64,000 nucleotides of DNA from a virus (lineage: Duplodnaviria; Caudoviricetes). Each line of letters opens with the position of its first letter. The first letter of the stretch is position 1. The DNA lies in the IMG/VR virus record IMGVR_UViG_3300042900_000746, positions 69,871-133,870 of that record; one strand, given 5' to 3'. Positions 987 to 63,921 of the stretch are shown here, piece after piece. Below the pieces are notes generated by a model. The model saw only the letters and a list, made by a program, of their open reading frames with translations. It searched no databases and was not told where the DNA came from. A program made the position numbers and the translations under genes.

Positions 987-3900
987 TTAATAATTGGCTG
1001 CCATTTCCGCATATGGATCCTGGGCTACATTGGGGATTCTATTATACATAGTAGTGTTGATATTGCCATTAACTAACCCTCCTGCAGCAGCATTAAATCT
1101 TCCGACGGTGTCTTGGTCTCCATATAAGTTTACTTTGTAACTGACGCCAGGATCATAACCTGGTCCTCCAAAGGTGCCAATTTGTGGAACTCGATTTGGA
1201 TAACCGCTTTCATAGGCGGATCCGCCTGGAAGTAGTGGGGGGCCAGCCATATCTTCGTGAGTCCTATCCCTGATCTCTGAATAGGCCAAGCTTCCTGCTA
1301 TTAAGCCTCCAATTGCCAGGGCGCCTTTCTTGATAGTAGGATTTTTGAAAAGATCTTTAAGATCTCCCATTTTTTCGCCTATTCTTTTATATACTGCTTT
1401 GTTCTCTACGAGTCCATCGTCTAGGTCTGTAATTGAATTAATGATATTATCAGCTAGTCCATCATCTCCAAATGCTGTTCTGGCAGCATCAGCATCTAAT
1501 ACACCAGCTGTTCCTAGGGTCCCTGGTGTTACATCATCTATTAGGCCTGTCGATGGATCAATATTTATTAATCCAGCTTGCGCTAGTTCATCTTTTTGCA
1601 TTTGAGCTCTTATTAATGCTACCTGATGATTAGCGTTTCCTCGTACCAAATCGTCAGCAATTTCATCTGACTGACCTAGTAAAGCTCTAAAAACATCATT
1701 TTGTTCGTTAGTTGTTTCGAAGATATCGAGCATTGTGTTCGTGCCGTCATCTATTCTTTGCTGGGCTTCTTTCACGGACTTTAGTCTTTTTTTAGCTTCT
1801 ATTTCCAAGTCCTCCATAGTGCCTTTATTTCCGAGGCTAGCTCTGACTTGATTGGCGTAATCTTGATCAAAAGATTCATAATGTTTTACTCTTCTGTACG
1901 TTCTAACATCTTGTATTGCTTTAGCTGCCCTTTCCGCGTCCTCTGGTAGCTCTCCTGCTTGCAGCGACGTTAAATGTCTTAAGCCTCCAATATCAACTCT
2001 AGTTCCAGCTGTTACTTTATCTATTGCATTTACTAAATCTACTGATGACATTCCGACTAATTGAGAAGCTTGACCTATATCTCTTAGTACCTTTTCGCCT
2101 ATATTATCCAAAAGTGCAGAGTGATTAAATAATTCAGTTTGATTCATTGTCTTAATGCTATCTGTGGTCGTATTGAATATCCTATCTAGCTCATCCTTAT
2201 GGGTAGCAATAATTGATCGAGCAACTGAATCAGCTTCCCTAGAAGTTCGTGTTGAAGATAAAATGTCGTCAGATGGAATCCTAGATATTGAGGACCTGTT
2301 CACAGAATCAAGATATGAAGAATATCGAACGCCTACGTCATGCACCCTGGATATTGATGCAAATGAGTGGTCTGCGTTTAGGCCAATTCTTTTTATTAAT
2401 TCCTCTTTAATCTTACTTGCATCATTAGAAGCGGATATATCTTTTAATTCTTTTAATGTTTTGTCTAAATCAACAGCTGTTGCAAGCCCTTGCCTTTGAG
2501 CGTCTTCCATACCTGTAATCATATTGTCTAATATAGATTTTGTGTCTGTGTCTCTAATTCTATCTTTCAGTAGAAACTCATCAATACCTAATAGAAGACT
2601 ATCGTCAGAGGAGCCAACTGCGCGCGAGAAGCCAATCATTTTTCCTAGTCCCTCGATGCTTTGTTCACCAAAAACGTCAAGCCCTAAATCTGCTCCAGAC
2701 AGTCCTAATTTTACTAGCGCTTTTTGAACTCCTACATCTTTCATATAATTAGCATTATCAGCTGAAGATAGAAGGCTTCCTACATTTTGAGATAGATTCC
2801 TCGAGGAGGCAAAACTTACACCAACGGAGGCGTCAATTGCCTCGTCCTGTGCTAGTAGGCCAATCTTATAGTTTTTCAGCATGTACTCTTTGGTTGCTTT
2901 AGAGGTACCTGCATCATTTAAGAATGCTTCATATTGATTCAATACACTGCCAACTGTCATCGATCTATTGACGTACACTCCAAGAATATCTCCACCTTCA
3001 ATAGCTTTTTTGACACTAAAATCATCTATTGCTGTCTGAAAAATTGCCCGCAGAGCCGGGTCTGTCTCATAGGTGGATTCCATCATCTTTAGCATTTCTT
3101 CAAAATCTGCGGCTTTTGAAAATTTATTTATCATTTTTTGATCAAAATTGTTTGCTCTCATTGTTTCCAGGAAATCATCCTTCATGTCAAAAGAACCTGA
3201 TTCTATAAAAGCTTTAAATATTCCTTCTCTAGTATAATCTGGTCGTTTGCTTAAATCTTTGACACTCAATGTAGAAGACCCATATCTTTTTATTTTTTCC
3301 GCTCTTTTTATGTCTAATTTTTGTATTGTAGTTACTCCACGTGCTTCTAAATCTCCAAAAACATTTACTATAGCTTGTTCAAAATCATCTATATGATTTA
3401 AGGATAGTGTTTTGTCTTTTTTGACAATTTGTCCTTTAACAGTTGTTTGGTCAGTATGTTTACCATCTAGTATGTCTTGAAGAATTCTGTACGTTTTTTT
3501 ATGGGCTGTATTGCTAGTTGATTGTGTTAAAGAGTCTAAGGATTTTCTAAATTCCATAACTGAAGAAGAATCTTCCCTACCCCCAAATAGACCCCTAATA
3601 GTATCTTGATCCATATTCATTCTAGCAAATATTAATTCTTCCGGGCCAGATGGCTGACGACTAATGTTGAACCCTAATCGAGTTAATCCTTGATTATCTT
3701 TATATGTTAAAACTTTTTCTAACACCTTGTCGTCTAAGTCGAATCCACCAAGAGCATGTCTGTATTTACCAATAGAGTCAGCCGGCAACATCATTTTATG
3801 GCCACTAACTCTAAACTTTAATATGTCGTGTTTTACATCGCCTAAACCCTCTATCGATATACGATCATATCCCCTGCCTTTATTCAGAATCATCTTTCCT

Positions 3901-5855
3901 TTTTCGGTTCCCATTAAAATTGCTTCACTGTCAATTGCAAAACGATGAGTGTCAGGAACAACCATTTGCATGAAGTCGCCCTTCATTCTAAATGCCTCTG
4001 TTGCAAAGAAGGTGTGCATCATGTTCATCATTGTTGGATTTTGCTTTGGACTAACGCCACTCCTCATCATGTCTAATATGGAATTAGCAAATTCTTTATT
4101 TCTCACCGCAGAAAGACGTGAATGTGATGGGAGATGACTTATATCGCGCTGTGATGCTTCTTCTAGCATCGCCCTTACCTTACGGGGCACTGTGCCACTG
4201 TTGATTGCGCTTTCGAATTCTCGAAGAACACTTTGGCCTCTTTGTTCCATTGCGTCCAGTGTTGCTCGATCAGCAAAAACTTCCGGATGAAAGGCAGCCG
4301 ATACTGGATCCGAATACACTAACTCGCGCCCTGAGCCCATTCCGCTTAAAGTTAATATATCAGTTTTTCCTGCAAAACCTAATTCTGGCTTAAATGCAAA
4401 TTTACTGGCAATCATTGTATATTTTTCTAATTGCTTGTCGAATTCTACTGCTTGACCAGCTGTTTTCAAATCTCCGTATTTAGCAGCGTGGCCTCTGATG
4501 GTGAACTGGTCAAGTCCTCCAGTAGCTTGAGCCCTAGAAGTCTGTCCTTTAATATTTTCCAACTGCTTTATTCTTATTGCTAGATCTTCCATCTCCTGAG
4601 AAGAGAGAGGTTTACCTAAACCTTGCTGCGCATTTTTTAATTTGTTTTTCAGAACATTTATTTCTTTGCGCATCGTTGTGTCGGTATATCCAGAGATCTT
4701 TTTCGCATTCATCAAATCAGATCCGTCGTACGCAAATTCGATATTGTCAAATAATTGTTTTACAAGACTTGCTCGTTTTTTGTCTCCATTAATAAAATTT
4801 GTTTCTAAATGTTTCATTAACTGATCACTAGCAAACTTGCCAGTTTTATTTGTTTCTTTGTATGCAAAGTCTGCGGAACGTATAACATTTTCAAATTCTG
4901 TTCTTTGCTTTTTAGTAAATTGGTTCAGTATGCTTCCAACAAAATCTTCTGCATCTACGTTCTTATAATAAGCCGCTAACTCCTTACCTCTCATGGTGTT
5001 TCCAAAAGCTTTTGTTTTATCAGTTCCTTGATAGGTCATTTTTTTCAATAACTCATACTGAGGATCTGGCACAAATATGGACGCGCTAAAAGTAGAACTT
5101 CCTCTTTTCCCAACAAAGTTTTCTAAATCACCACCTGCTAAAGATACTTCTCTTTCAGAGGCTAATGACCTAAATCTTTTGGGTATTTTCAACAAATGGT
5201 CGACTAGTCTTCCAGATCTAAGTTTATTTGGATTCTTGCTAAGAACCTTCTCGGACATTACCCCTGGATCCAACATATCATGACCTGTCACGGATAAGAG
5301 TAGATTGGACTGATAACTAGTTAGCATGTTACCTCCAGCTCTCATGGTTATCAATCTTGCGCTTTCATCATCAATAACAGTTATCCCCTGCAGCGAACCA
5401 CGTTTTCTCAGTTTGTCTATCTCCATAGCAATATTTTTAACTCCACCTTTGTCTTCATGGAGAGTTAACAAATCTACCTGCATATCTTTTATTGAACTTA
5501 CGTCAATTCCGGCATCTTGCAGTAATTTGATTTGGCTCGCTGAGAATGTCTGTGATTTGCTTTTTACGTCAGCCATTATTTCAGCCATACCACTTACTTT
5601 ACTGCCTAATCTTGACTGTCCTGGTTTACTGTCTAAATTGTTAAATTGAGAAATTCTTAGTGTACCTGCTCGAGCAAAGGCTCTGTCGATAGATTTGAAT
5701 GATTCACCAGTAGCACTCAAGACGAATTTTATTTCATCTCCATCAGGTTCTATCTTTATAGCATTACCCATGCCATAAGACGTTCTCATCAAAGCAGATC
5801 TTGCGGCAGCCATTCTCTCTGGAAGGGTGTCGTACATTCTATTAATATCTACCAT
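987..5855 (-). CDS. Large virion-module protein (1622 aa), putative virion-packaged two-barrel (QDE-1/YonO-like) DNA-dependent RNA polymerase
   Basis: Motifs FAYDGS (~4719-4736), QFTIRG...GDLK (~4460-4508), GGFDLDD (3729-3749) and SRQP (3651-3662) match in order and type those of the 61564..63921 protein; C-terminal hydrophobic Gly-rich segment KGALAIGGLIAGSLAY; start overlaps the upstream stop (TAATG). Confidence 0.65.
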   Translation of the reverse strand: MVDINRMYDTLPERMAAARSALMRTSYGMGNAIKIEPDGDEIKFVLSATGESFKSIDRAFARAGTLRISQFNNLDSKPGQSRLGSKVSGMAEIMADVKSKSQTFSASQIKLLQDAGIDVSSIKDMQVDLLTLHEDKGGVKNIAMEIDKLRKRGSLQGITVIDDESARLITMRAGGNMLTSYQSNLLLSVTGHDMLDPGVMSEKVLSKNPNKLRSGRLVDHLLKIPKRFRSLASEREVSLAGGDLENFVGKRGSSTFSASIFVPDPQYELLKKMTYQGTDKTKAFGNTMRGKELAAYYKNVDAEDFVGSILNQFTKKQRTEFENVIRSADFAYKETNKTGKFASDQLMKHLETNFINGDKKRASLVKQLFDNIEFAYDGSDLMNAKKISGYTDTTMRKEINVLKNKLKNAQQGLGKPLSSQEMEDLAIRIKQLENIKGQTSRAQATGGLDQFTIRGHAAKYGDLKTAGQAVEFDKQLEKYTMIASKFAFKPELGFAGKTDILTLSGMGSGRELVYSDPVSAAFHPEVFADRATLDAMEQRGQSVLREFESAINSGTVPRKVRAMLEEASQRDISHLPSHSRLSAVRNKEFANSILDMMRSGVSPKQNPTMMNMMHTFFATEAFRMKGDFMQMVVPDTHRFAIDSEAILMGTEKGKMILNKGRGYDRISIEGLGDVKHDILKFRVSGHKMMLPADSIGKYRHALGGFDLDDKVLEKVLTYKDNQGLTRLGFNISRQPSGPEELIFARMNMDQDTIRGLFGGREDSSSVMEFRKSLDSLTQSTSNTAHKKTYRILQDILDGKHTDQTTVKGQIVKKDKTLSLNHIDDFEQAIVNVFGDLEARGVTTIQKLDIKRAEKIKRYGSSTLSVKDLSKRPDYTREGIFKAFIESGSFDMKDDFLETMRANNFDQKMINKFSKAADFEEMLKMMESTYETDPALRAIFQTAIDDFSVKKAIEGGDILGVYVNRSMTVGSVLNQYEAFLNDAGTSKATKEYMLKNYKIGLLAQDEAIDASVGVSFASSRNLSQNVGSLLSSADNANYMKDVGVQKALVKLGLSGADLGLDVFGEQSIEGLGKMIGFSRAVGSSDDSLLLGIDEFLLKDRIRDTDTKSILDNMITGMEDAQRQGLATAVDLDKTLKELKDISASNDASKIKEELIKRIGLNADHSFASISRVHDVGVRYSSYLDSVNRSSISRIPSDDILSSTRTSREADSVARSIIATHKDELDRIFNTTTDSIKTMNQTELFNHSALLDNIGEKVLRDIGQASQLVGMSSVDLVNAIDKVTAGTRVDIGGLRHLTSLQAGELPEDAERAAKAIQDVRTYRRVKHYESFDQDYANQVRASLGNKGTMEDLEIEAKKRLKSVKEAQQRIDDGTNTMLDIFETTNEQNDVFRALLGQSDEIADDLVRGNANHQVALIRAQMQKDELAQAGLINIDPSTGLIDDVTPGTLGTAGVLDADAARTAFGDDGLADNIINSITDLDDGLVENKAVYKRIGEKMGDLKDLFKNPTIKKGALAIGGLIAGSLAYSEIRDRTHEDMAGPPLLPGGSAYESGYPNRVPQIGTFGGPGYDPGVSYKVNLYGDQDTVGRFNAAAGGLVNGNINTTMYNRIPNVAQDPYAEMAANY

Positions 5856-8800
5856 TATCTAACTCCCGCCGAAACGTCAATGCCCTGTGAGCCAAAAGGA
5901 TTCATAACTGGAGTAACACTTCCGGAAAATCCAAATCCATTCATCAGTTGGCGCAATTTATCAAGAGTGCTATTTCCATCGCTGCTTTTCCCAAATTGGG
6001 GATAACTAGGATTAGCTAAATTTGCTTCACGAATCTGCTGAGGGAAATATCCCATTTGAGACATTTCTATACCCATAGATTCTCCTGTTTTAATTTTTAC
6101 TTGTTCTAAGTTTGTGTTGGGGTGCCATCCTTCCCATGACGCATCCGGTAGTTCATGCCGTGTAAAATAATCGTCGAGATCTGGTCTTTGTTCAACATTC
6201 ATACCCCATGATGCTTCATATATTCTTCTCTCTAGACGTCCTGCAGTAGAGAGTATCCTGCCCCTTTCTCCTTCTGGAGCATTAAGCATGGCTTTAAAGT
6301 GTTCTCTTTTTCTTTTTGGAATAGATAGAGATAATGTATCAATGTCTTTACCATAAAGATCCGCACCATACATTGTTCTTTTTGCAGCCATCCCATAGTC
6401 TAATGCTGCTTTTTCATCCCCTGAAGATTTAGCCATAGTTTCTAATCTTTTATTTTTTACATAATTTAAGATGTCCGAATATTCTTCTAATGCTAATTCT
6501 TTTTTTCTTTGCTTCGGTATAAATCTTTCACCAGTTATTAATTCTGAAGCCTGCCCGTATGTTGATGCTGCCAGACCGGTAGTCACACCAACCGCTGTTC
6601 CCAGCAGTTTAGCTTTAGCTGTTCTGCCAAAAAGTGATCCGGCAATACCTAGTCCAGTCGCTGCTGTTATGGGATCTCTTTGTGTAGATTTGTCAATCAT
6701 TGGTTTGATATAACTATCGTATGGTCTTTGCCATTCAGGGAACGTAGCACCATATACATGCTTCCTTTCCCAATCTTCAGTAGCTGTTCTTTTTCCTATT
6801 GTTTTGTTAATAGCAAAGTTGTCGGAATGAGCTATATATTCGCCAATTCTTCCTGCGCCAAATTTTAATGGATGTTGCCCCATTTCTTCAGCTGATGACC
6901 CCTTGTATTTATAATCAGTAAATTCATTTTTAGTTGCCATACTTTCAACTTGGGATCTTATATCAGCTACTTTATTTCTTTCAGCGGGACCTAAATCCAT
7001 GCTGTCAATTTTTTTATCTAATGTTTTATATTGCTGAGAATATGGCGCAACATCTCCTAATATTTTCAATTGATCTAATGCGCCGTATGATCCAGTTGAA
7101 TCTGGATTTAATCTATTAAACCTTTCATACCCTACTCCCGGTAGTCTCAGTTCACCTTCTTGCACCTTAGTGTATGGATCTCCTCTAGTGAAGTCCGTAA
7201 AATATTCAGAACCAGGAAGGAATGGATACTGTTTACCCATTGTGTTTTCTATTGGGTTTATATAGTCTACGCCAGTTCTTTCTTTTGGAATAAATCTTCT
7301 AACAATTTCAGAGAATTCCAGGTTGCCCAATCCTTCTCTGTTGCCCAGCGGTGCGTCTCCTAATCCTCCAAGATTTAAATCCCAAAATGCTCGAGTACTT
7401 CCATAAGCTTTTGATGCCGACTGCAAAACGCTTCTTTGAGGCTGATAATCTTGCTGACCAAATCCTAATGATTTTCTTAAATTGCCAAAACCAAAACCAT
7501 AGATACCAGCCATTTCTTGCATTCTGAATCCAAGCTCACCTGCCTGGAAGGAACTAGTACTGGGTTCTAACGGAGCACCAGCTCCGACTATTCTGGGAGC
7601 CATTACGCCAGACACCTTGGGTGGACCATAAGCTAAATCGCTGTATTGAGAGTTTACATCTTTTAGTGAAGACCTAACCATCGACCCAGCAGCGCCGGTA
7701 CTTCCAGCTCTGCTAGCCAACATTGAGTTGACCCCAGAGATGCCTGTAGCTCCGCTGGAGCCGATTGGTGAACCAGGCCTAGCTGTCATTGCCCCAGAGC
7801 CAGTCAGGGGCATTCCAGGGGGCCCTCCAGCCATATCTCTTGTGAACCCCACTCCGTCTATGTAGCTTGAAGTCATTCCATACGCAGACGCGTCATAGGC
7901 CCCAGATTGACCTGCATTTGTATAATTAGCCAATCCTTGTGCTGTTTCATCCTCGTGCATTAGCACTTGAGGCTTTAGTAGTTTTCCGACTGTCATATTT
8001 GCGAGTGGGACAAGTGGACCAAAAGGACCGGTAAAATATTCACCGCTGACTGGGTATGGTCTGTCTTCGTAGTGCTTACGTTCAAATCTATAAGGATCTA
8101 ATGGTCTTAGTGGCGAAATATCATTATAAAATAAGAATTTTTCAGCTGGACTTCCGTATGTATCACTGGTGAACATGGCGCCTGCTTGAAGTTTTCGATA
8201 CCAAGAAGGCCTGTAATACTGGATCTTTCCACCTTTAAATGGAGTATTACCTAAAGGCCAAAATCTTCCTTGTCTTATTGGTACTTCTCCCTCAACCAAT
8301 TGCTCTTTCTTTTCGTCATATGTCATACCACCAGGAGTCAGCCCTGCAGATAAAGACTGCAGTTCCATCGCACCTTTTGCTACCTGGCCCAATACTAATG
8401 GCGAATAGACCCTTTCTCCTCTGTCATCCTTTTCATTGACCATCCCACCCATTGTTCTATCTACAGTAAGTGCCGTAACTCCAGCTGCATACATTGGCAG
8501 TACCCTCTTGCCAACCATTCCTGTTGCAAAAAGGTCTAGTGGTCCCTTAAAGTCAGAAACATTTAACTGCATCCCCAGTGTACCGAAATATCTATTTAGT
8601 CTTTCTACGCCCTGAGAAACTGGTATGCTCGCGGTAGAGAAACTTTGTGGATCAGAATACGTTGTTAATCCAATTGCGCTTTTGATCGCACCCATTGGAT
8701 CTCTTCCAAAAACTGTTCCAAAAGTTGGAACAACAGTTATACTTTGCCCAGAACCAAGTGGGTCTACAGCTAAATCATCCGCCTGATACCCAGATGTCCC

Positions 8801-57550: not shown

Positions 57551-57562
57551 TCACAATCAACC

Positions 57563-57621: not shown

Positions 57622-57680
57622 AAGAGGTTGTTTCCCTGGGATCTTCGGATCCTGGGGAAACTTCCTTTTTTTGGGATAGG
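57622..57680 (+). terminator. Repeat copy 6
   Basis: GTTTCCCTGGGATC-TTCG-GATCCTGGGGAAAC TTCCTTTTTTT GGGATAGG. Confidence 0.8.
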
Positions 57681-57721
57681 CATTCGGCCTCCCTATATCA
57701 CCCCAGAAAGGAGGTGAAAAC

Positions 57722-57961
57722 ATGGGTGTCTCCATCTTCCTCGGAAACGAGGATCGAGCCTCTTGGACGTATGGTCATTTTGACCATGTCCTTCGCGCAC
57801 TAGGTCTTCCTAGTCCGGAGGAGTCCGATTGGGCTGGATCGATGGACCCAGAACATCTCGTTCAGAATCTCCACAAGATTGTGAATGCAGATGATCGGGA
57901 ATTCATAGCGGAAATCGCTATCGAGTCCCTGAGGTCTGGATCCTCGATCTCCTGGTCATAA
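57722..57961 (+). CDS. Hypothetical protein (79 aa)
   Basis: AAAGGAGGTG RBS. Confidence 0.75.
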   Translation: MGVSIFLGNEDRASWTYGHFDHVLRALGLPSPEESDWAGSMDPEHLVQNLHKIVNADDREFIAEIAIESLRSGSSISWS

Positions 57962-57973
57962 CCAGGCGATTGG

Positions 57974-58030
57974 ACACCGCCACTTGTAAGAGAGTGGCCG
58001 AGTTGGCGCAACTTGGGAACAGAAGCGCTA
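57974..58030 (+). ncRNA. Candidate structured 3' RNA element, copy B
   Basis: GCCACT/AGTGGC stem, CGAGTT/AACTTG stem, GGAACAGAA, and loop GGCGC pairing with GCGCT. Confidence 0.5.
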
Positions 58031-58090
58031 AAGAGGTTGTTTCCTCTGGGATTTTCGAATCCTGGAGGAAACTTCCTTTTTTGAGGATAG
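58031..58090 (+). terminator. Repeat copy 7
   Basis: GTTTCCTCTGGGATT-TTCG-AATCCTGGAGGAAAC TTCCTTTTTT GAGGATAG. Confidence 0.8.
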
Positions 58091-58160
58091 ACCATTGTCC
58101 TTACTGGTAGCCAGAATGCAGGCATAAAACCAGTCCGGGTGACGCCGGTTCATCAGTCAA

Positions 58161-58220
58161 CGTAATAATCACGTTCAGTACGTTAAGCTGAACAAAGGCA
58201 TGTTTCTTGGAGGGATCATG
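58161..58220 (+). promoter_or_regulatory. Structured 5' leader, copy 2
   Basis: Near-identical to 55843..55902 and ends at the RBS and ATG. Confidence 0.6.
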
Positions 58221-58778
58221 TCACATAGTAAAACAGCAGCAGAGTTTGCTGCAAAGGTCCACGAAAGGTTGGCTCCTGCAAGGGAAGCCTACTATGAGTG
58301 GCTCAAAGGGGTGTACCAGTTATGGAATACCCAGTTCTTCAGCAAGAAGTCGGTCACCCAGGATGTCCTGGACCGTTCCGACAAGGGTGGGGATGAAGAT
58401 CCCTGGATGACATTTCAGAGCACACTCTGTACTGTAATGTCAGAGAAGTACCCGCGATTTGGGCTTCTCATGAATCCCGATGAAAACGGTCAGTCCATTC
58501 TGGATGGATTCATCCTGGATTTGGATGAGCCAGGCGACTGGTACATCAAAGCCGAAACAAACCCAGAGACTGGGATCACTTGGGTGGCTTTGTTTGTAGA
58601 AGACAAGGACCCATATGACCCGTGGGCAGGACAAATGTGGAATATCCCATTCCACTTCAACGTGAAGTTCACGCAATTTGGGTACCAGGTCCTTGGGGCT
58701 TGGTCTAACGGGTATAAGAGTGATGAAGAATGGGAGGTGTGGGGTGAGCCTGAGTTTTCAGGCTACCAGTTTCCCTGA
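58218..58778 (+). CDS. Acidic Trp-rich hypothetical protein (186 aa, MSHSKTAA...)
   Basis: GGAGGG RBS. Confidence 0.75.
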   Translation: MSHSKTAAEFAAKVHERLAPAREAYYEWLKGVYQLWNTQFFSKKSVTQDVLDRSDKGGDEDPWMTFQSTLCTVMSEKYPRFGLLMNPDENGQSILDGFILDLDEPGDWYIKAETNPETGITWVALFVEDKDPYDPWAGQMWNIPFHFNVKFTQFGYQVLGAWSNGYKSDEEWEVWGEPEFSGYQFP

Positions 58779-58798
58779 GTTAATTATTATTAGTAGTT

Positions 58799-58863
58799 AA
58801 GTTGTTCCCCGGGGATTGGCAGAAATGCTGGTCCTCGGGGAATCTTCTTTTTTTGACAATAGG
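58799..58863 (+). terminator. Repeat copy 8 (variant TTGACAATAGG)
   Basis: TTCCCCGGGGATTGGCA-GAAA-TGCTGGTCCTCGGGGAA hairpin plus T tract. Confidence 0.75.
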
Positions 58864-58897
58864 CCCCCGAACAACCGAAGGGGTCGGAAAGGTTGTC

Positions 58898-59215
58898 ATG
58901 TTGGTAAACTTAACTCCTCACGAGGTAACACTCGTGAATGATCAGGGTGATATTACCCTGGTCATCAAGCCGGAGGGAACTCCTGCTCGGTGCGCAGTGA
59001 AGCGAGAGATCGCATTCATTGCGGACGGTATTAGTGTCAATAAGAGTGTGTTCGGAGAGGTCGTTGGCCTTCCGGAGCCCATTGAAGGCACTTGGTATAT
59101 TGTTAGCCGGATTGTAGCAGAAGCTGCACAACGTTCAGATCTTCTGGTTCCGGATGAAACAGTTCGGAACCAAGAAGGTCAGATTGTTGGTTGTAAGTCA
59201 TTTGCAACAATCTGA
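58898..59215 (+). CDS. Phage hypothetical protein with NLTPH motif (105 aa)
   Basis: MLVNLTPHEV, GLPEP, YIVSRIVA, DLLVP and VRNQEGQIVGC pattern that I recall from a widespread phage family of unknown function. Confidence 0.75.
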   Translation: MLVNLTPHEVTLVNDQGDITLVIKPEGTPARCAVKREIAFIADGISVNKSVFGEVVGLPEPIEGTWYIVSRIVAEAAQRSDLLVPDETVRNQEGQIVGCKSFATI

Positions 59216-59232
59216 GTTAATTATTAACAATT

Positions 59233-59288
59233 GAGTTGTTTCCCCTGGGGTCTTTGGGCCCTGGGGGAAACTTCTTTTTTGAGGATAG
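59233..59288 (+). terminator. Repeat copy 9
   Basis: GTTTCCCCTGGGGTC-TTTG-GGCCCTGGGGGAAAC TTCTTTTTT GAGGATAG. Confidence 0.8.
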
Positions 59289-59334
59289 ACCATTGGGGTC
59301 AGTCCACAACTCACCAACGAAAGGAGGTGAAATA

Positions 59335-59511
59335 ATGGCTCCCACCTGGGACTCGGTTGGTGTTTGTTCGCTTTGCGGACAGGACATAACTGTAGAAGAG
59401 GTGGTGGATCACTGGTACAAGCTCCCTACAGGGGAACTTGGAACAACGGTTCACCGAACCAGGGATGAATCCATGCCGCTCGTTCACGGGCAGTGCATCG
59501 ATTCTCTCTGA
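59335..59511 (+). CDS. 58-aa Cys/His zinc-binding protein (MAPTWDSVGVCSLC...HGQC)
   Basis: AAAGGAGGTG RBS; CxxC and HxxC. Confidence 0.65.
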   Translation: MAPTWDSVGVCSLCGQDITVEEVVDHWYKLPTGELGTTVHRTRDESMPLVHGQCIDSL

Positions 59512-59525
59512 GACCCTCGTCCCAC

Positions 59526-59586
59526 AAACCGCTACTTGAAAGAGAGTAGCCGGGGTGAACACTCCTACCCTGGGAACAGAATGGAG
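59526..59586 (+). ncRNA. Candidate structured 3' RNA element, copy C
   Basis: GCTACT/AGTAGC stem, CGGGGT/ACCCTG stem, GGAACAGAA, and loop CTCC pairing with GGAG. Confidence 0.5.
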
Positions 59587-59593
59587 ACAACTC

Positions 59594-59656
59594 GTCCCTA
59601 CCCTGGGGATCTTCGGATCCCTGGGGTAGAGACCCTACCTTTTTTTTGAGGATAGG
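59594..59656 (+). terminator. Repeat copy 10
   Basis: CTACCCTGGGGATC-TTCG-GATCCCTGGGGTAG, then CCTTTTTTTT GAGGATAGG. Confidence 0.75.
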
Positions 59657-59685
59657 CCACCCAGGCCAGTCCAGGAAAGGAAACC

Positions 59686-59850
59686 ATGGCTCTTAACAAA
59701 ACCATGGTTGCTATCCACATCGCCTTGTTCTTGGCGATGTTCGGTGTAATTACAATGGCTAGCCCAGGCTGGTTCATTGTGTTTATGCTGACTGTCATAA
59801 CGGGTTATTGCGTTATTGGCGGTTGGATCGCAGCAAAAAGCGAGGACTGA
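59686..59850 (+). CDS. 54-aa two-helix membrane protein (MALNKTMVAIHIALF...)
   Basis: Manually translated; GAAAGGA RBS; fills the space between repeat copies 10 and 11. Confidence 0.65.
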   Translation: MALNKTMVAIHIALFLAMFGVITMASPGWFIVFMLTVITGYCVIGGWIAAKSED

Positions 59851-59875
59851 CAAACCTCGTTGTCCATGAAACCGC

Positions 59876-59937
59876 TCCTTACCCTGGGGATCTTAGGATC
59901 TCTGGGGTAAGGACCCTACCCTTTTTTTGAGGATAGG
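59876..59937 (+). terminator. Repeat copy 11
   Basis: TCCTTACCCTGGGGATC-TTAG-GATCTCTGGGGTAAGGA, then CCCTTTTTTT GAGGATAGG. Confidence 0.75.
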
Positions 59938-59966
59938 CCACTGGGGCCAGTCCACGAAAGGGAAAT

Positions 59967-60269
59967 ATGAAAGTCAAGAACAAGTGGTGGGTCTCATACA
60001 AGATCCGCCAAGTTGCCAAAGCCCGTGAAAGGGCAATGGTCAACCCAGCCACCGTCAAGCAGCTATGCTTCATCGCATTCCTGCTCGAGTTCACAATCGT
60101 CAATGCCGAAGAGGCAAAGACCATTAAGACAATGGTCCACAATGGAGTGGATTTCTACTGGGCCAGCAAGACCATCAAGTACCTGCAACAGAAGCCTTAC
60201 CGCTTCACATTTGCGGAGTACAAAGTCAAGAATGCCAATTGGGACTACGCTAATAAGCGTTGGTTCTGA
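59967..60269 (+). CDS. Basic hypothetical protein (100 aa)
   Basis: GAAAGGGA RBS; ATG 30 nt after the repeat. Confidence 0.7.
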   Translation: MKVKNKWWVSYKIRQVAKARERAMVNPATVKQLCFIAFLLEFTIVNAEEAKTIKTMVHNGVDFYWASKTIKYLQQKPYRFTFAEYKVKNANWDYANKRWF

Positions 60270-60292
60270 TAGTAGATAAGTAAAAAAAAAGT

Positions 60293-60343
60293 AAGGTGCA
60301 GATCCTCTCGTTTGGGATCTGTGCCTTCTTTTTTTGGCATAGG
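60293..60343 (+). terminator. Repeat copy 12 (variant TTGGCATAGG)
   Basis: AAGGTGCAGATCCT...GGGATCTGTGCCTT hairpin plus T tract. Confidence 0.7.
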
Positions 60344-60402
60344 CGTTAGGCCTCTAGCTACAGTTAACTAAATCTGTTGGAAAATTAGTAAGAAAGGAAA
60401 TC

Positions 60403-60666
60403 ATGTCAGTTAATGGACCATGGGATGAAGATCCTATGTGGGTTCCGGATCTTGAAGATTCGGAGCTTGCTAATACATGTTTCAGGTGTCAAGAATTGGA
60501 AGCTGAATTGGAATCATGGAAGCTCACCGCTTCTATGTGGATGGCGGAGGCTGAAGCGCAAGCGGAGTCTGACTTGGCACGCTTTGAACTTCAAGAGCAG
60601 TACATGCGCCAACAAGAAAAGGAAGCTGAAAGAAAGAGAAGGGAATACGGCAAACCAAGTAACTAA
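60403..60666 (+). CDS. Coiled-coil hypothetical protein (87 aa)
   Basis: GAAAGGA RBS; CxxC followed by a Glu-rich helix. Confidence 0.7.
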   Translation: MSVNGPWDEDPMWVPDLEDSELANTCFRCQELEAELESWKLTASMWMAEAEAQAESDLARFELQEQYMRQQEKEAERKRREYGKPSN

Positions 60667-60681
60667 GTAAGTAAGTAAGTA

Positions 60682-60737
60682 GAAGGATTGTTCCCGGGGA
60701 TTTCGGTCCTCGGGAACTTCCTTTTTTTGAGGATAGG
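60682..60737 (+). terminator. Repeat copy 13
   Basis: GTTCCCGGGGAT-TTCG-GTCCTCGGGAAC TTCCTTTTTTT GAGGATAGG. Confidence 0.8.
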
Positions 60738-60766
60738 CCACTGGGGTCAGTCCAAGAAAGGAAATC

Positions 60767-61258
60767 ATGTCAGTTAATAATCAATTCCGGCAAAGGCTGG
60801 ATGTGATCTCGAAAGTAGAGATTGTATCTGGCTGCTTGGAGATTACTTCAAGCAACGCTGCAATATTACTTGCAGGACCACTGACGTATGGACAATACAT
60901 TAGTGTGTTTTCGGGTAAGAAGTATTCGTTTGTTGGAACATCGCAAGATGGCGCTATCATCGATGCATTTATGCACGACGGTAGTGCCCGTGACAATGGT
61001 GGGTATGGCGGCGACGCTTTTGAACTCACGATGAATGATGGATCTCACCGAGTTTTGGTCGGTCCATGGTCTAGCCGACCATCAGTCCATAGCGTTAACA
61101 GTGGAATTTCTTTCACGGAAGTCCGAGTTAACGGTAGGCTGGCTTACTTTTCTCAGGCATTCATTGCGGCAATTGTTCACGAATTCAACATCAATGCAAC
61201 AATGACCGTACGAGTTGATGAAGACGGTGAGATATATCTTGAGTTAGTAAGTAAATAA
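60767..61258 (+). CDS. Hypothetical protein (163 aa)
   Basis: GAAAGGA RBS; GGYGG and GPWSS motifs. Confidence 0.75.
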   Translation: MSVNNQFRQRLDVISKVEIVSGCLEITSSNAAILLAGPLTYGQYISVFSGKKYSFVGTSQDGAIIDAFMHDGSARDNGGYGGDAFELTMNDGSHRVLVGPWSSRPSVHSVNSGISFTEVRVNGRLAYFSQAFIAAIVHEFNINATMTVRVDEDGEIYLELVSK

Positions 61259-61278
61259 GTAAGTAAGTAAAGTAAGAC

Positions 61279-61330
61279 GAGGTAGTCCCTGGGGAGAAAT
61301 CCCTGGGGACTTTCCTTTTTTTGCCAATAA
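61279..61330 (+). terminator. Repeat copy 14 (degenerate, TTGCCAATAA)
   Basis: AGTCCCTGGGGA-GAAA-TCCCTGGGGACT hairpin plus T tract. Confidence 0.75.
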
Positions 61331-61427
61331 ATCGTTGGCCCTTAAACAGGAGGTAGAAATGTAATGAATACCATTGTTAATACTCAATTGCTTAATTTAG
61401 TAATAATAGACCCTTCTCTACCCCCCG

Positions 61428-61474
61428 CCTAGGAGGATAGCCATGGACCTTAGGTTCCTTTTTTTGACGATAGG
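61428..61474 (+). promoter_or_regulatory. Repeat copy 15 (weak hairpin, TTTTTTTGACGATAGG) upstream of the RNA polymerase-like gene
   Basis: Core motif retained and followed by CCATTGGCCTTTAGT, as in copies 1 and 7. Confidence 0.6.
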
Positions 61475-61563
61475 CCATTGGCCTTTAGTCACACGTGAGG
61501 TTCCACGTCAGGGCCAACAGTTTGTGTGTATCTGTACAAAAACACACAGAAAGGGAGGGAGAG

Positions 61564-63921
61564 ATGCCGTATTTCCATGGCATTGTGGTCCTCGCTGGAA
61601 GGTGGCTTCGGCTGCTGACTGGTGCGGCTCACGTCCCGGGTACCAACATCAAAGAAGAGTTTCAGGGAGGACAATACGTCCCAGCGTTCCTGGAGCACTT
61701 CTGGGGTGGGAAGTACCGCGTCGAGGTGCGTAAGCTGTTCAGCCGTAAGGTTGGATCAGTGGAAAGCGCACCAGCGGTGACCAATAAGGAGCTGTTCTCT
61801 AGCGAAGTAATTCGTTGGAGCAACTCCTCGGACCAGTACATGTTGCGCATTAAGGGCAATGATGGCTGGCTTGCTAGCTTCAAGGAAATCGGTCTTCTGA
61901 TCGGTAACTCAAAGAAGATGAGCAAGAGGTTAGTGGAGCTCGTGCGCATGTCGTGCATGTGGCTTCATATACCTGAAGAGGAAGCCCTTGAGGTTGACGT
62001 CATCGATCACAAAGCGTTGGGCATGCCTGATGAGTTTGTGGACGGTGCGACGTTCATCACCCGTGGTTTGGCCATCAAGTGCGTGAAGTCGAATACTTCG
62101 GCAACACGTGCTTGGAGGGCCAAGATGATCTGGGACATTCGCAATGGCAATCTTGTCGTTGTGCAGTTCCGGATGCTCTGTGCACTGGGAGAGATCAAAG
62201 GTAATGCTGTGATCACTCCTCGTCGCCAGATGCGAGGCTACGAAGTTCGGACATTTGCTCCGAATATCAAGGCTGAGATCAAGACCACAGGATGGCAATG
62301 GGTCACATTGGAGCCGTCTTACGGGACGATTCCGGTGAAGTCGGACGATCTGACACATTCCATTTACTGGGATGTTAAGGGTCTGTATGACCACGACTCA
62401 CTCCTGGCATGCCTGGAATCCTCTTTGAAGCAATTCAAGGAGGACTTGGTCGCTGGCAAACGCTCTGAGTGGATGGAGAAGCTCGCTGAAAATAGCGGGA
62501 ATATCCTACACGAGGAGTCAGAGGTAAAGTATGCAAAGGATCGTGGCCTAGTTGGCAGGATTCAGCATGCGGTTGCTCAACTTAGCAAGTTGGGTGTACC
62601 TCTACACGCCAGTCAAACCCTGATGTTCCTCTCGGTCAATGGTTTGCGAAAGCAGCTGTTGGGCGACAATCGTCAGGGTGAGGTATGGACAGACAAGTCT
62701 CGTCACTGGTTTCCAGTGTCGTGGGCTTATGCTGCCCATGTCTATACCAAGGAAGTCTTGGAAATCGGTGGGTTTAAGATGCCCGCTGGTAACCATGGCT
62801 TCTTCCATGAGGCTACCCACAGCTTCGTGGTACCTGGCCAGTTCTTGAAGGATAACTTCGAGAACTGGGGAGGCCCGGACCTAGATGACACAGTTAAGGT
62901 GCATGTGCGCCGTGTGTTGGATAGTAAGGGCAAGGTCAAGTTGATGGGAATTGTCATGCGCAATCCGAATGATTTCGGTGAGTATGCGATGATTCCGATT
63001 AAGGAGACCGGACCGGTATTCCACGACTATGGTGCTGAGCCCCCGCTGGTGGATCTGCAGGAACTATCTAGTAAGGTTCCGCAGTTTACTAAGCTGAAGA
63101 AGCACCTGAACATCGGATCACTTCCGGCGATCACTAATCCACGTAAGCGTGGTGACGTGTTCTCGTTGGAGGATGAGTCGGCTGTTCGGCTTGCATCACA
63201 AGCTTTTCCACCAGGAATGGGCGGAACGGTCATCCCAAAGATGATCTGGTACGCTCAGTTCGGGAAGCCCATTGAGGAGTTGGTTGCAACTAACGAAGAC
63301 ATCGTTGATGTTCTTCAGCAGGGGCAAGCTTCTCTGGAGGATGTGCAGTTGATCAAGCAATGGATCGACAACACATTCACCACAATGGGTGAAAGGCTCA
63401 ACTGGGAAATGGACCGCTTCTGGTTCATGACCCGGATGCCAGCACCATTGGCAGAGGTGTGGGAAACCTCATCCGAGGAAGCATCGCCTTGGGTCACACT
63501 CCATAAGGAGCGTGAGAACCTTGTGCGTCAGTACATTAAGGAAATGACGGATTGGCTGAATAGTCAAGTCGTTATGCCTGAAGTGCTGGAGCAGATCAAC
63601 TGGACTCCAGAAGAGCGTGCAAACGCTTGGAAGAAACTCCAGAAGATTAAAGAGGTTCATCAAGCAGCTCGAAACAGTAGTCTCACCTGGTGCGACTACT
63701 TTGTAGAGCTGATGACCAAGAGTGATGAAGAGTTTGGTGAAGAACGTACTGATCGTAAGATCTTATGTTTAGCTCACCAAGCTATCCTCGCGAAGGCTCA
63801 AACGCCAGGAGCCAACCATGACCAGTGGTTATTCTCGTTCAACGCTAAGAGCGAAATACAACCGTACATGTTCTATGTACGTGCTTTGAAGCGTGTTCAA
63901 GACGGGACTTACAACTGGTAA
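61564..63921 (+). CDS. Putative single-subunit two-barrel (QDE-1/YonO-like) RNA polymerase, ~785 aa
   Basis: FVDGATFI (62035-62058) resembles RdRP FSDGxGxI; QFRM...GEIKG (62164-62202) resembles QIRxxGxKG; GGPDLDD (62869-62889) resembles GGDLDGD; MRNP (62956-62967); GGGAGG RBS before ATG 61564. Confidence 0.7.
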   Translation: MPYFHGIVVLAGRWLRLLTGAAHVPGTNIKEEFQGGQYVPAFLEHFWGGKYRVEVRKLFSRKVGSVESAPAVTNKELFSSEVIRWSNSSDQYMLRIKGNDGWLASFKEIGLLIGNSKKMSKRLVELVRMSCMWLHIPEEEALEVDVIDHKALGMPDEFVDGATFITRGLAIKCVKSNTSATRAWRAKMIWDIRNGNLVVVQFRMLCALGEIKGNAVITPRRQMRGYEVRTFAPNIKAEIKTTGWQWVTLEPSYGTIPVKSDDLTHSIYWDVKGLYDHDSLLACLESSLKQFKEDLVAGKRSEWMEKLAENSGNILHEESEVKYAKDRGLVGRIQHAVAQLSKLGVPLHASQTLMFLSVNGLRKQLLGDNRQGEVWTDKSRHWFPVSWAYAAHVYTKEVLEIGGFKMPAGNHGFFHEATHSFVVPGQFLKDNFENWGGPDLDDTVKVHVRRVLDSKGKVKLMGIVMRNPNDFGEYAMIPIKETGPVFHDYGAEPPLVDLQELSSKVPQFTKLKKHLNIGSLPAITNPRKRGDVFSLEDESAVRLASQAFPPGMGGTVIPKMIWYAQFGKPIEELVATNEDIVDVLQQGQASLEDVQLIKQWIDNTFTTMGERLNWEMDRFWFMTRMPAPLAEVWETSSEEASPWVTLHKERENLVRQYIKEMTDWLNSQVVMPEVLEQINWTPEERANAWKKLQKIKEVHQAARNSSLTWCDYFVELMTKSDEEFGEERTDRKILCLAHQAILAKAQTPGANHDQWLFSFNAKSEIQPYMFYVRALKRVQDGTYNW

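What the first reader, a model, noticed from the sequence alone, without database searches (positions are those of the whole stretch)
987..63921. Candidate two-polymerase phage transcription system: a virion RNAP, an early RNAP and a repeated cognate terminator-promoter
Seen: two otherwise dissimilar proteins about 56 kb apart share four ordered motifs. In the 1622-aa protein these are FAYDGS, QFTIRGHAAKYGDLK, ALGGFDLDDKV and ISRQP; in the ~785-aa protein FVDGAT, QFRMLCALGEIKG, NWGGPDLDDTV and VMRNP. One gene is coupled to the tape-measure-position gene in the virion module; the other ends an array of small genes each preceded by a conserved non-sigma70 motif. Known: these motifs resemble double-psi beta-barrel polymerases (QDE-1/RDR, SPbeta YonO, crAss-like phi14:2 virion RNAP), and Thermus phage P23-45 has both a tape-measure-linked virion RNAP and a non-virion RNAP. 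Inferred: the injected 1622-aa enzyme transcribes the cassette array including the second RNAP, which then runs later transcription, in a myovirus-like lineage with a divergent active site.
Basis: partly seen in the sequence, partly recalled or inferred. Interest (0 to 1): 0.93.

Follow-up and report, generated by a model that had tools for sequence, protein, structure and literature searches.

The report
Two paralogous phage RNA polymerases
A roughly 200-kb lake-water phage with a contractile tail encodes two very distant copies of a QDE-1-like RNA polymerase, one inside its tail-gene block and one among its early genes, plus a repeated terminator-promoter signal, which suggests it runs its own two-step transcription programme.

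Summary
All eight motifs are present. The two proteins are homologous over 276 aligned profile columns (hhalign E 2e-6; reversed and block-shuffled controls score far lower).

Both families keep an invariant GGxDLDD loop (DxDD) in place of the canonical DxDxD.

The large gene sits in a conserved sheath / 2212-aa / polymerase / 3728-aa tail block, and its ATG overlaps the upstream stop (TAATG).

Fourteen one-gene cassettes (hairpin, T-run, GAGGATAGG) fill 55.7-61.5 kb. They occur nowhere else in the 134-kb contig, and the last one drives the small polymerase gene.

Packaging into virions, injection and the assignment of promoters to polymerases remain inference. This is a new variant of the two-polymerase scheme known from P23-45, built on an unannotated superfamily of 265 clusters.

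The parts
61564..63921 (+). 785-aa single-subunit two-barrel RNA polymerase (candidate non-virion / early-expressed RNAP). In 785-aa numbering: DPBB-B about residues 131-251, helical connector 262-365, DPBB-A about 384-480, helical C-terminal part 498-779.
62869..62889 (+). Codons for GGPDLDD (G436-D442), the putative metal-binding loop of DPBB-A in the small polymerase.
   Evidence: G436, D439, D441 and D442 are invariant in 41 close homologues and in 36 distant ones at 16-24% identity. In the model the loop lies between helix 425-430 and strand 443-452. Its equivalence to the DxDxD loop is inferred from topology, not from a residue-level superposition.
2856..5855 (-). N-terminal ~1000 residues of the 1622-aa protein: a diverged two-barrel polymerase module (candidate virion RNAP). 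DPBB-B about 379-505 with a 60-aa helical hairpin inserted at 384-444, connector 517-621, DPBB-A about 622-746, then helices.
3729..3749 (-). Codons for GGFDLDD (G703-D709), the putative metal-binding loop of the large protein.
   Evidence: G703, D706, L707, D708 and D709 are invariant in 45 sequences down to about 20% identity. hhalign aligns them to GGPDLDD of the small polymerase.
987..2855 (-). C-terminal ~620 residues of the 1622-aa protein: helical region, one hydrophobic Gly-zipper-like segment (about residues 1510-1525) and a conserved C-terminal tail (GPPLLPGGSAYE..YP.R).
   Evidence: Sequence; family consensus. The last 135 residues are 39% identical in the complete relative G003, against 28% for the polymerase core. 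No Pfam family. Atlas gives leads only, to tape-measure and minor-tail clusters at scores 0.75-0.79, below the tool's 0.9 mark.
5855..12493 (-). 2212-aa protein in the tape-measure position. Its stop overlaps the ATG of the 1622-aa gene (TAATG).
   Evidence: No PHROG or Pfam family. Atlas leads to TMP_3 and PhageMin_Tail clusters at 0.81-0.84 only. 44% identical and syntenic in G003.
531..974 (-). 147-aa gene starting 12 nt after the stop of the 1622-aa gene; same operon.
   Evidence: Conserved and syntenic in G003 at 36% identity. No Pfam family.
12511..20178 (-). Tail genes upstream of the pair: two sheath homologues (18559-20178 and 16273-17547), a virion structural protein (17661-18593), paralogous 225- and 244-aa proteins, and three smaller genes.
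   Evidence: PHROG sheath and structural hits. The whole block is collinear in the complete genome G003 at 35-71% identity.
55704..61489 (+). Array of 14 one-gene cassettes. Each has a G+C-rich hairpin, a T-run, GAGGATAGG (the T6 and ATAG columns are invariant), a short 4-6-bp hairpin, a Shine-Dalgarno site and a small ORF of 32-192 aa. Motif starts: 55746, 56202, 56404, 56783, 57213, 57666, 58077, 58849, 59275, 59642, 59923, 60329, 60723, 61460. The last lies 90 nt upstream of the polymerase ATG.
   Evidence: A terminator-like hairpin is called directly upstream of 14 of 14 motif sites; the region holds 39 terminator-like sites against 10.6 +/- 3.0 expected. The stems contain G-U pairs that only work in + strand RNA (read). 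The motif is absent from the other 128 kb of the contig. This region is 48% G+C against 30-41% elsewhere.
61284..61338 (+). Terminator hairpin plus T-run followed by a degenerate motif (GCCAATAAATCG, ATAA instead of ATAG), after the 163-aa gene.
   Evidence: (family D1, last copy).

Best explanation
The window is the right-hand 64 kb of a 134-kb fragment of a phage whose full genome is probably about 200 kb. The phage is found in lake-water metagenomes and has a contractile tail. It carries two anciently duplicated single-subunit two-barrel RNA polymerases of the QDE-1/RDR/P23-45 kind.

Shown by fold and profile comparison:
- The 785-aa protein has the full two-barrel polymerase architecture.
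- The first ~1000 residues of the 1622-aa protein are its distant paralogue.
- Both carry an invariant GGxDLDD loop where other members have DxDxD, together with invariant Arg/Lys in the other barrel.

Inferred model:
1. The 1622-aa protein is made late with the tail proteins. Its gene is translationally coupled to the 2212-aa gene in the tape-measure position.
2. It is packaged, with its helical, membrane-segment-bearing C-terminal part serving packaging or ejection, and it enters the cell with the DNA.
3. There it starts at the T-run-GAGGATAGG promoters and stops at the hairpin/U-run terminators. This gives short one-gene early transcripts with a 5' stem-loop, one of which encodes the 785-aa polymerase.
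4. The 785-aa enzyme then transcribes the minus-strand replication and virion genes from different promoters. A candidate promoter is TTACTAT[AT].

No sigma factor was found, which fits independence from host-RNAP reprogramming.

For: Large protein: hhalign E 2.1e-6 over 276 columns, against controls that scored at most 33.7 versus 55.3. BFVD hit to a small-polymerase family member at E 2.7e-8. Its only long PDB alignments are to RDR2, QDE-1 and P32 gp64.

Catalytic-type conservation: D-x-D-D, R/K, R-x-P and E are invariant in both families.

Co-occurrence: 4 of 4 near-complete relatives (96-100% by CheckV; three with terminal repeats) that encode the small polymerase also encode the large one.

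Tail-module membership: the order sheath...2212-aa / polymerase / 147-aa / 3728-aa is conserved in complete genome G003. TAATG overlap.

Cassettes: 14 copies, strand-specific, confined to one 6-kb region of 134 kb. Each has a terminator-like hairpin. The motif precedes the small polymerase gene itself, so an enzyme present before that gene is expressed must read it. Sigma-70-like sites are not enriched.

Related loci carry lineage-specific versions: GAGGATAGG, ATGG[AG]TAG[AG] and ATG[AG]CTAGA. Across 27 loci there are 99 sites on the polymerase strand against 13 on the other.

No Sigma70_r2 in 5 of 5 genomes, with the positive control ringing in 10 of 14 control genomes.

The phage has its own DNA polymerase, primase-family protein and DnaB helicase, so the polymerase is not needed for priming.

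Precedent: in P23-45 the virion RNAP transcribes pre-early genes, including the non-virion RNAP gene, from its own motif, with conserved terminators (PMC10770324, Results read).
Against: - No experiment and no virion proteome: packaging and injection are inferred from gene position only.
- The canonical DxDxD motif is not met.
- No Pfam, PHROG or PDB sequence match for either family.
- I could not check that the invariant Asp, Arg and Lys residues cluster in space.
- Nothing assigns the cassette motif to one polymerase rather than the other.
- Only 14 of 27 related loci have 3 or more copies of a T-run...TAG motif. The group with 51-56% identical polymerases (L006-L010, L019) mostly lacks it.
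- No longer fused tape-measure forms were found, which is weak evidence.
- RNA evidence is limited to a few short contigs in one metatranscriptome, and these may be DNA carry-over.
- 5 of 6 long family members scanned carry an N-terminal PIF1 helicase. That would also fit a DNA-metabolic role.
Confidence: 0.55

Rival explanations
1. Both proteins are polymerases, but the cassette motif is read by the 785-aa enzyme in a self-amplifying early/middle class, or by the host RNAP. The virion enzyme, if there is one, would read other pre-early promoters that lie outside this window, for example beyond the contig end.
For: Nothing in the sequence links the motif to one enzyme. The contig is only 63% complete, and DNA continues past the window end. 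In L002, sites with a related ATAG core but A/T-rich flanks (AAAATAGA, ACAAATAGA) follow the array, so there may be two related promoter classes. Near-consensus sigma-70-like sites exist at 54761-54732(-) and 55288-55315(+).
Against: The small polymerase gene has the same motif as the other cassettes, so that enzyme cannot make its own first transcript. Strong terminators between cassettes argue against read-through from a distant host promoter. The motif has no -10/-35 pattern, and sigma-70-like sites are not enriched.
Confidence: 0.2
2. The 1622-aa protein is mainly a structural tail or ejection protein (a tape-measure partner or inner-tail protein). Its polymerase-like module would be a relic or have a non-transcriptional role, and only the 785-aa enzyme would transcribe.
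For: Its position inside the tail block. A C-terminal membrane-like segment and weak tape-measure leads. Weak direct matches to solved polymerases. It diverges much faster than its neighbours: 28% identity against 35-71%.
Against: The residues expected to be catalytic (D706, D708, D709, R454, K464, R733) are invariant across 45 sequences down to about 20% identity, which is not expected of a relic. The polymerase module also occurs in 983-aa forms without the long tail. P23-45 shows that a tail-borne polymerase can be active (PMC10770324).
Confidence: 0.12
3. The enzymes of the 785-aa family act on DNA metabolism rather than on gene expression. They might make primers or R-loops, or copy RNA, together with a helicase.
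For: 5 of 6 long family members scanned have an N-terminal PIF1-like helicase, and 2 have a NADAR domain. QDE-1 and the RDRs, the best structural matches, are RNA- or ssDNA-templated enzymes. A RecA/UvsX-like gene lies 8 kb upstream.
Against: This phage and 4 relatives have no PIF1 (0 of 5). The phage does have a primase-family protein, a DnaB helicase and a DNA polymerase of its own. The gene sits in an early cassette array rather than in the replication block. No sigma factor or other RNAP was found to run phage transcription.
Confidence: 0.08

Closest known systems
Thermus phage P23-45 gp96 (virion RNAP fused to the tape measure protein) and gp64 (non-virion RNAP). Chaban et al. 2024, PMC10770324; Results section read.
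   Different: The host phage here is myovirus-like, not a siphovirus. The tail-module polymerase is a separate 1622-aa gene coupled to the 2212-aa gene, not its N-terminal domain. The active-site loop is DxDD, not DFDGD. The structural matches are closer to RDR2 and QDE-1 than to gp64 or gp96. No sequence similarity is detectable. The promoter motif is different.
QDE-1 (Neurospora) and plant RDR2, the eukaryotic RNA-silencing polymerases
   Different: No hit to Pfam RdRP or to any other Pfam family. DxDD loop. Phage context with promoters and terminators, which points to DNA-templated transcription. About 9-12% identity in the structural alignments.
Virion RNAP gp66 of crAss-like phage phi14:2 (PDB 6vr4)
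   Different: The similarity is weak. gp66 belongs to a podovirus-like lineage. According to the preprint abstract seen in the search listing, it has a DFDxD motif.
YonO-like single-subunit RNAPs (SPbeta; reported for Bacillus phage 0305phi8-36 by Iyer et al. 2021, PMC7824862, passages read)
   Same: Single-chain two-barrel RNAPs of tailed phages. 0305phi8-36 is among the nearest cultured relatives by terminase (27% identity).
   Different: The family profile finds nothing in 0305phi8-36, MTATph1, ME3 or KLEB27-3 even at E<=1 (0 of 4), and tblastn finds nothing in 50,697 phage records. No YonO structure or sequence was available for a direct comparison.
phiKZ / AR9 jumbo phages (virion plus non-virion multisubunit RNAPs) and N4 (virion T7-like RNAP). 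Known from review abstracts in the search listings, and otherwise recalled.
   Same: The same logic: an injected polymerase for early genes and a second phage polymerase for later genes.
   Different: Those enzymes are multisubunit beta/beta'-like or T7-like, not QDE-1-like single chains.

Membership tests
Two-barrel (double-psi beta-barrel) RNA polymerase superfamily: 785-aa protein | Two DPBB domains in one chain, with the polymerase-type connector and helical C-terminal part | tested here: met
   Whole-chain matches to RDR2, QDE-1, P32 gp64 and P23-45 gp96. Isolated DPBB domains align to residues 131-251. The second barrel, at about 384-480, is inferred from the strand pattern and from the whole-chain alignments.
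Two-barrel RNA polymerase superfamily: 785-aa protein | DxDxD metal-binding triad in DPBB-A | tested here: not met
   The invariant loop is D439-L-D441-D442 (DxDD). It holds in 41 close and 36 distant sequences. Three acidic residues are kept, but the loop is one residue shorter.
Two-barrel RNA polymerase superfamily: 785-aa protein | Conserved basic residues supplied by DPBB-B | tested here: inconclusive
   K212 is invariant and R203 nearly so, and both lie within the DPBB at 131-251. Their position at the barrel interface could not be measured because no coordinates were available.
Two-barrel RNA polymerase superfamily: 1622-aa protein | Two DPBB domains / polymerase fold | tested here: inconclusive
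Two-barrel RNA polymerase superfamily: both proteins | Template-dependent RNA synthesis | not testable with these tools
   Needs purified protein.
Eukaryote-type RdRP family (Pfam RdRP) | Match to the Pfam model | tested here: not met
   No Pfam family at E<=1 for the 785-aa protein. None relevant in the 36 family members scanned.
Virion (injected) RNA polymerase of the P23-45 gp96 / phi14:2 gp66 type | Protein present in virions | not testable with these tools
   Only gene position speaks for it.
Virion RNA polymerase fused to the tape measure protein (P23-45 type) | Polymerase and tape measure in one polypeptide | tested here: not met
   These are separate genes with a TAATG overlap. No longer fused forms were found, which is weak evidence. 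The tape-measure nature of the neighbour and of the C-terminal tail rests on leads only.
Intrinsic (hairpin plus U-run) terminators | G+C-rich stem-loop directly followed by a T-run, on the coding strand, after each gene | tested here: met
   14 of 14 cassette junctions have one. The region holds 39 sites against 10.6 +/- 3.0 expected. The G-U pairs in the stems fit the + strand RNA only.
Sigma-70-type promoters | -35/-10 hexamers at the cassette starts | tested here: not met
   14 sites against 16.4 +/- 4.4 expected in the region. Only one, at 57217-57246, overlaps a cassette motif.

The most novel reading that the evidence does not exclude
A large superfamily of phage two-barrel RNA polymerases, with no Pfam, PHROG or PDB match in my searches (265 clusters at 50% identity), works with a shortened DxDD catalytic loop. 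In a widespread group of about 200-kb freshwater myoviruses it has split into two paralogues. One is tail-borne and rides into the cell with the tape-measure complex through a contractile tail. It reads a T-run-N4-ATAG promoter fused to the preceding intrinsic terminator. The other is an early-expressed paralogue that takes over later transcription. This would make the phage independent of host RNAP and of sigma factors. In other lineages the same polymerase is fused to a PIF1 helicase, which would be a helicase-coupled RNA polymerase of a kind I found no description of.
Probability: 0.4. Interest if true: 0.8.

Novelty: new variant of a known kind. Interest (0 to 1): 0.7.

Why it matters
- It would extend the two-polymerase strategy (virion plus non-virion RNAP), with QDE-1-like single-chain enzymes, from one thermophilic siphovirus group to an abundant freshwater myovirus lineage. 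That would suggest the strategy is common.
- The DxDD loop, invariant down to 16-24% identity, challenges DxDxD as the signature used to find such enzymes. Motif-based searches, as used for P23-45 gp96, would miss this whole superfamily.
- The very regular terminator-promoter cassettes give a ready template set for studying how a minimal two-barrel RNAP recognises promoters and intrinsic terminators.
- The PIF1 and NADAR fusions hint at further functions.

Tried and rejected
- Sequence searches that found nothing for either protein or its profile:
  - Pfam (only sub-threshold E1_FCCH and Ets1 hits for the large protein);
  - PHROGs;
  - PDB by phmmer and by profiles A1, A2 and A4 (only coiled-coil-type noise);
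  - tblastn against 50,697 phage records;
  - Pfam on 36 distant family members.
- Profile A4 against four cultured relatives (0305phi8-36, MTATph1, ME3, KLEB27-3): 0 of 4 at E<=1, with no positive control in that call. I tried to locate the YonO-like protein of 0305phi8-36 named in PMC7824862 by reading the first 10.5 kb of the record, did not find it, and dropped the matter.
- Longer fused forms of the large protein: none found, and the tool itself calls this weak evidence.
- Atlas searches on the C-terminal tail of the large protein and on the C-terminal half of the 2212-aa protein scored 0.75-0.84, below the tool's 0.9 mark. These are leads only.
- Rfam and tRNA scans of the window: nothing.
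- T7-like RNAP family: 0 of 5, but the control rang nowhere, so this is uninformative. DnaG zinc ribbon 0 of 5. PIF1 0 of 5.
- Literature searches found no paper describing this family or a DxDD RNAP. The 23 RNAP families compared in PMC10770324 are listed only in its supplements, which were closed, so the family may already be among them.
- RNA evidence: one riverine metatranscriptome (X24) held 5% of the sampled words. Its contigs match exactly at 57302-57602 and 63288-63491, but contigs cannot show starts, ends or strand, and DNA carry-over is possible. I do not count this as evidence of expression.
- The short hairpin after ATAG is positionally conserved in 12 of 14 copies but thermodynamically weak (mean z -1.2). 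I did not take it as far as a covariance model.
- The primase rival was weakened, not excluded.

Full report
**What the window is.** The window is the last 64 kb of a 133,870-bp linear IMG/VR virus contig that CheckV rates 63% complete. Almost all genes from 1 to 52 kb of the window lie on the minus strand, and from 52.4 kb onward they lie on the plus strand. PHROG hits identify a portal (30386-32056), a major head protein (25735-26793), the large terminase (40463-42319), two sheath homologues (16273-17547 and 18559-20178) and virion structural proteins. This is a myovirus-type virion module. The nearest cultured relatives by terminase are Moorella phage MTATph1 (36%) and the Bacillus 0305phi8-36 group of jumbo phages (27-32%). 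Four related contigs of 202-210 kb are 96-100% complete, and three of them have terminal repeats, so the full genome is probably about 200 kb. Near-identical DNA occurs in 23 lake-water metagenome runs.

**The observation.** Both ORFs and all eight motifs are present as described. Homologues of the small protein are 785 aa long and cover 97% of the 808-aa reading, so the ATG at 61564 is the likely start. Pairwise BLASTP is marginal (E 0.018 over 56 residues around the DLDD and R-x-P motifs). Each protein, however, has a large metagenomic family: 119 hits for the small one and 96 for the large one, all unnamed or 'hypothetical'.

- D-G; R; K; GG-x-D-L-D-D; R-x-P; and an E seven residues after that R.

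Profile-profile comparison aligns 276 columns, running from the second motif to the fourth:
- E 4.9e-5 on the whole alignments;
- E 2.1e-6, probability 89%, score 55.3 after trimming to the core;
- a reversed profile scores 14.3 and twenty block-shuffled profiles score 14.6-33.7.

The first motif (D-G) lies outside the aligned block. In the model, the large protein has a 60-residue helical hairpin inserted after it. The resemblance is therefore real homology, not chance.

**The small protein is a two-barrel polymerase.** With 41 sequences AlphaFold gives pLDDT 88.4 and pTM 0.82.
- Foldseek against the PDB returns 19 matches at E<=0.001. Those listed are QDE-1, maize and Arabidopsis RDR2, and the non-virion RNAP of the P23-45-like phage P32. 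P74 gp62, P23-45 gp96 and then bacterial beta' follow.
- Free-standing DPBB domains align to residues 131-251.

That first barrel carries D160-G161, R203 and K212. A second set of six strands (384-479) carries the GGPDLDD loop, placed between a short helix and the strand TVKVHV, and then R466-N-P and E473. From recalled knowledge of beta' (NADFDGD followed by QMAVHV), this is the position of the metal-binding loop. I could not verify it residue by residue, because model coordinates are not exposed.

**The large protein.** Residues 1-1100 fold with pLDDT 81.0 and pTM 0.81.
- Direct matches to solved structures are weak. No Foldseek hit reaches E 0.001, although phi14:2 gp66 (0.044) and QDE-1 (0.068) are ranks 2 and 3.
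- The stronger evidence is indirect. Against predicted viral structures the model hits A0A6J5M9G6 at E 2.7e-8. That entry is protein P0106, a member of the small-polymerase family (35% identical to it, E 3e-147).

Together with the profile alignment, this makes the N-terminal ~1000 residues a diverged paralogue of the small polymerase. The two families are closer to each other than to any solved polymerase, which suggests an old duplication within phages, as was argued for P23-45. The remaining ~620 residues are helical, contain one Gly-zipper-like hydrophobic segment and end in a conserved motif. They have no family match and only weak Atlas leads to tape-measure and minor-tail clusters.

**The divergent active site.** A full-library profile search finds 265 clusters (50% identity) at E<=0.001 and 173 at E<=1e-10. 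In 36 members that are only 16-24% identical to the window's protein, the invariant columns are K121, R122, D160, G161, K212, G436, D439, D441, D442, R466, P468, E473 and D582, and the consensus reads HGGWDLDD. The DxDD spacing is therefore a fixed property of the whole superfamily and of the large-protein family, not a local oddity. None of the 36 has a relevant Pfam domain. Searches for 'DxDD' with 'RNA polymerase' and 'phage' found no paper.

**Genomic setting of the large gene.** Its ATG overlaps the stop of the 2212-aa gene (TAATG). A 147-aa gene follows after 12 nt, and then a 3728-aa gene. In the complete, terminal-repeat-bearing relative G003 the whole order is kept: sheath, 310-aa protein, sheath, two paralogous ~230-aa proteins, three small genes, 2212-aa protein, polymerase, 147-aa protein, 3728-aa protein, 725-aa protein. 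The neighbours are 35-71% identical. The polymerase core is only 28% identical and its last 135 residues 39%. All 4 of 4 near-complete relatives that have the small polymerase also have the large one. This makes the large protein a fixed member of the tail block. That is the basis, and the only basis, for calling it a virion enzyme. The neighbour's tape-measure identity rests on position and on Atlas scores of 0.81-0.84. No fused forms were found.

**The cassette array.** Between 55.7 and 61.5 kb there are fourteen units of the same design:
- a G+C-rich hairpin of 5-18 pairs and a T-run, called as terminator-like at 14 of 14 junctions (the region has 39 such sites against 10.6 +/- 3.0 expected);
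- immediately after it, GAGGATAGG, in which six T and ATAG are invariant columns;
- a 4-6-bp hairpin with compensatory changes (GGCC/GGCC, GACC/GGTC, GATC/GATC) in 12 of 14 copies, although its mean folding z is only -1.2;
- in six copies the block CAGTCCA, then a strong Shine-Dalgarno site and an ORF of 32-192 aa, with the ATG usually 30-42 nt after the motif.

The terminator stems contain G-U pairs that exist only in the plus-strand RNA, so they act in the transcript. The motif occurs nowhere else in the 134-kb contig and never on the minus strand. The region has 48% G+C against 30-41% elsewhere. Sigma-70-like sites are not enriched (14 against 16.4 +/- 4.4).

The fourteenth unit lies 90 nt upstream of the small polymerase gene. 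The array does not stop there. In L002 (polymerase 95% identical) three more units follow the gene, and a DNA contig from another lake sample extends 5.9 kb past the window end.

Related phages keep the design but change the words:
- GAGGATAGG in L002-L004;
- [AG]CGGATAGAG in L005;
- ATGG[AG]TAG[AG] in the 45-46% identity group;
- ATG[AG]CTAGA in the 36% identity group.

Over 27 loci the pattern T-run-N4-5-TAG[AG] occurs 99 times on the polymerase strand and 13 times on the other. Only 14 of 27 loci have three or more copies, and the 51-56% identity group mostly lacks it. A motif that diverges together with the phage lineage, abuts a terminator and precedes each early gene is best read as a phage-specific promoter.

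**Which enzyme reads it.** This is inference. The small polymerase gene itself sits behind the motif, so the first transcripts must be made by something already present. That is either an injected enzyme or the host RNAP, and the motif does not look like a host promoter. No sigma factor was found in 5 of 5 genomes, and the control for that search worked. P23-45 offers the exact precedent: its virion RNAP transcribes a small pre-early block that includes the non-virion RNAP gene, from its own motif and with a conserved terminator.

For later genes I noticed TTACTAT[AT] on the minus strand: 20 sites in the whole 134-kb contig, 8 of them in the roughly 3% of that strand that is intergenic. Three of the intergenic sites lie in the window, upstream of the major head gene, a sheath-module gene and the 543-aa gene. 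This is a candidate second promoter class, and I have not tested it.

**Rivals.**
- The motif could belong to the small polymerase or to the host enzyme.
- The large protein could be structural, with a relic polymerase domain. The invariance of its catalytic-type residues argues against this.
- The family could serve DNA metabolism. 5 of 6 long family members scanned carry an N-terminal PIF1 helicase, and two carry NADAR. This phage has no PIF1 and does have its own DNA polymerase, primase-family protein and DnaB helicase, so priming is not a needed role here. The fusions remain unexplained.

**Comparison and novelty.** The system works like the P23-45 scheme, and more loosely like phiKZ/AR9 and N4. 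The enzymes belong to the two-barrel superfamily by fold. They fail the DxDxD signature, match no Pfam, PHROG or PDB sequence family, and are not detectably related to the YonO-like enzyme reported for 0305phi8-36 (0 of 4 cultured relatives matched the profile). Five literature searches found no description of them. The supplementary family lists of the P23-45 and crAss papers could not be read, so prior mention cannot be excluded. I rate it a new variant of a known kind.

**Verdict.** The fold-level interpretation is supported for the small protein and supported more indirectly for the large one. The injected-enzyme cascade is plausible and unproven. Confidence in the full model is 0.55, and interest is 0.7.

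Noticed in passing
window 17592, 25631, 29282 and 52148 (minus strand); further sites elsewhere in the contig: TTACTAT[AT] occurs 20 times on the minus strand of the 134-kb contig. Eight of these lie in the few intergenic gaps, including upstream of the major head gene, a sheath-module gene and the 543-aa gene. It is a candidate middle/late promoter, read either by a phage polymerase or as a host -10-like element.
   Followed up: partly
proteins P0223, P0228, P0233, P0222, P0231, P0107 (relatives of the 785-aa polymerase): Of the 6 long family members scanned, 5 carry an N-terminal PIF1-like helicase, 2 a NADAR domain and 1 a DUF4326 domain. A helicase fused to a two-barrel polymerase is unexplained.
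   Followed up: partly
window 55700-64000: The early cassette region has 48% G+C, against 30-41% in every other 5-kb bin of the contig. The cause is unknown.
   Followed up: no
window 55770-59296: DNA contigs from other lake samples join cassettes directly (55770 to 59278, skipping 3507 nt) or in another order (59296 back to 56842). The cassette repeats therefore appear to serve as recombination points that shuffle early genes between strains.
   Followed up: no
window 52073-52180: The gap between the divergent minus-strand and plus-strand gene blocks holds A/T-rich overlapping repeats (ACATATAAG.ATATA...) followed by three G-runs (GGGGGGAAGGGGGGAAGGGGGGG). It may be an origin or a control region.
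   Followed up: no
window 54842-55163: A stretch of about 320 nt without ORFs lies just before the first cassette gene and is conserved in L002. It contains repeated GGGAAAAAT-type words. Near-consensus sigma-70-like sites lie beside it at 54761-54732(-) and 55288-55315(+).
   Followed up: no
window 14759-16247 (minus strand): The 225-aa and 244-aa proteins downstream of the sheath genes are paralogues of each other (about 35% identity by cross-matching in G003). They may be duplicated tail-tube proteins.
   Followed up: no
L002 15092, 15725, 18519; L009-L027, downstream of the polymerase gene: After the cassette array, relatives carry T-runs followed by A/T-rich words with the same TAG/ATAG core (AAAATAGA, ACAAATAGA) or other recurring words (ATTCATACAAA, TCTAGGGCGAGAATCGCC). 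These may be further promoter classes.
   Followed up: no
contig 59205-70391, just upstream of the window (minus strand): A 3728-aa ORF follows the polymerase / 147-aa pair, with 1696- and 1803-aa ORFs further on. These giant tail or baseplate-region proteins have not been examined. The 3728-aa protein is 40-52% identical in G003.
   Followed up: no
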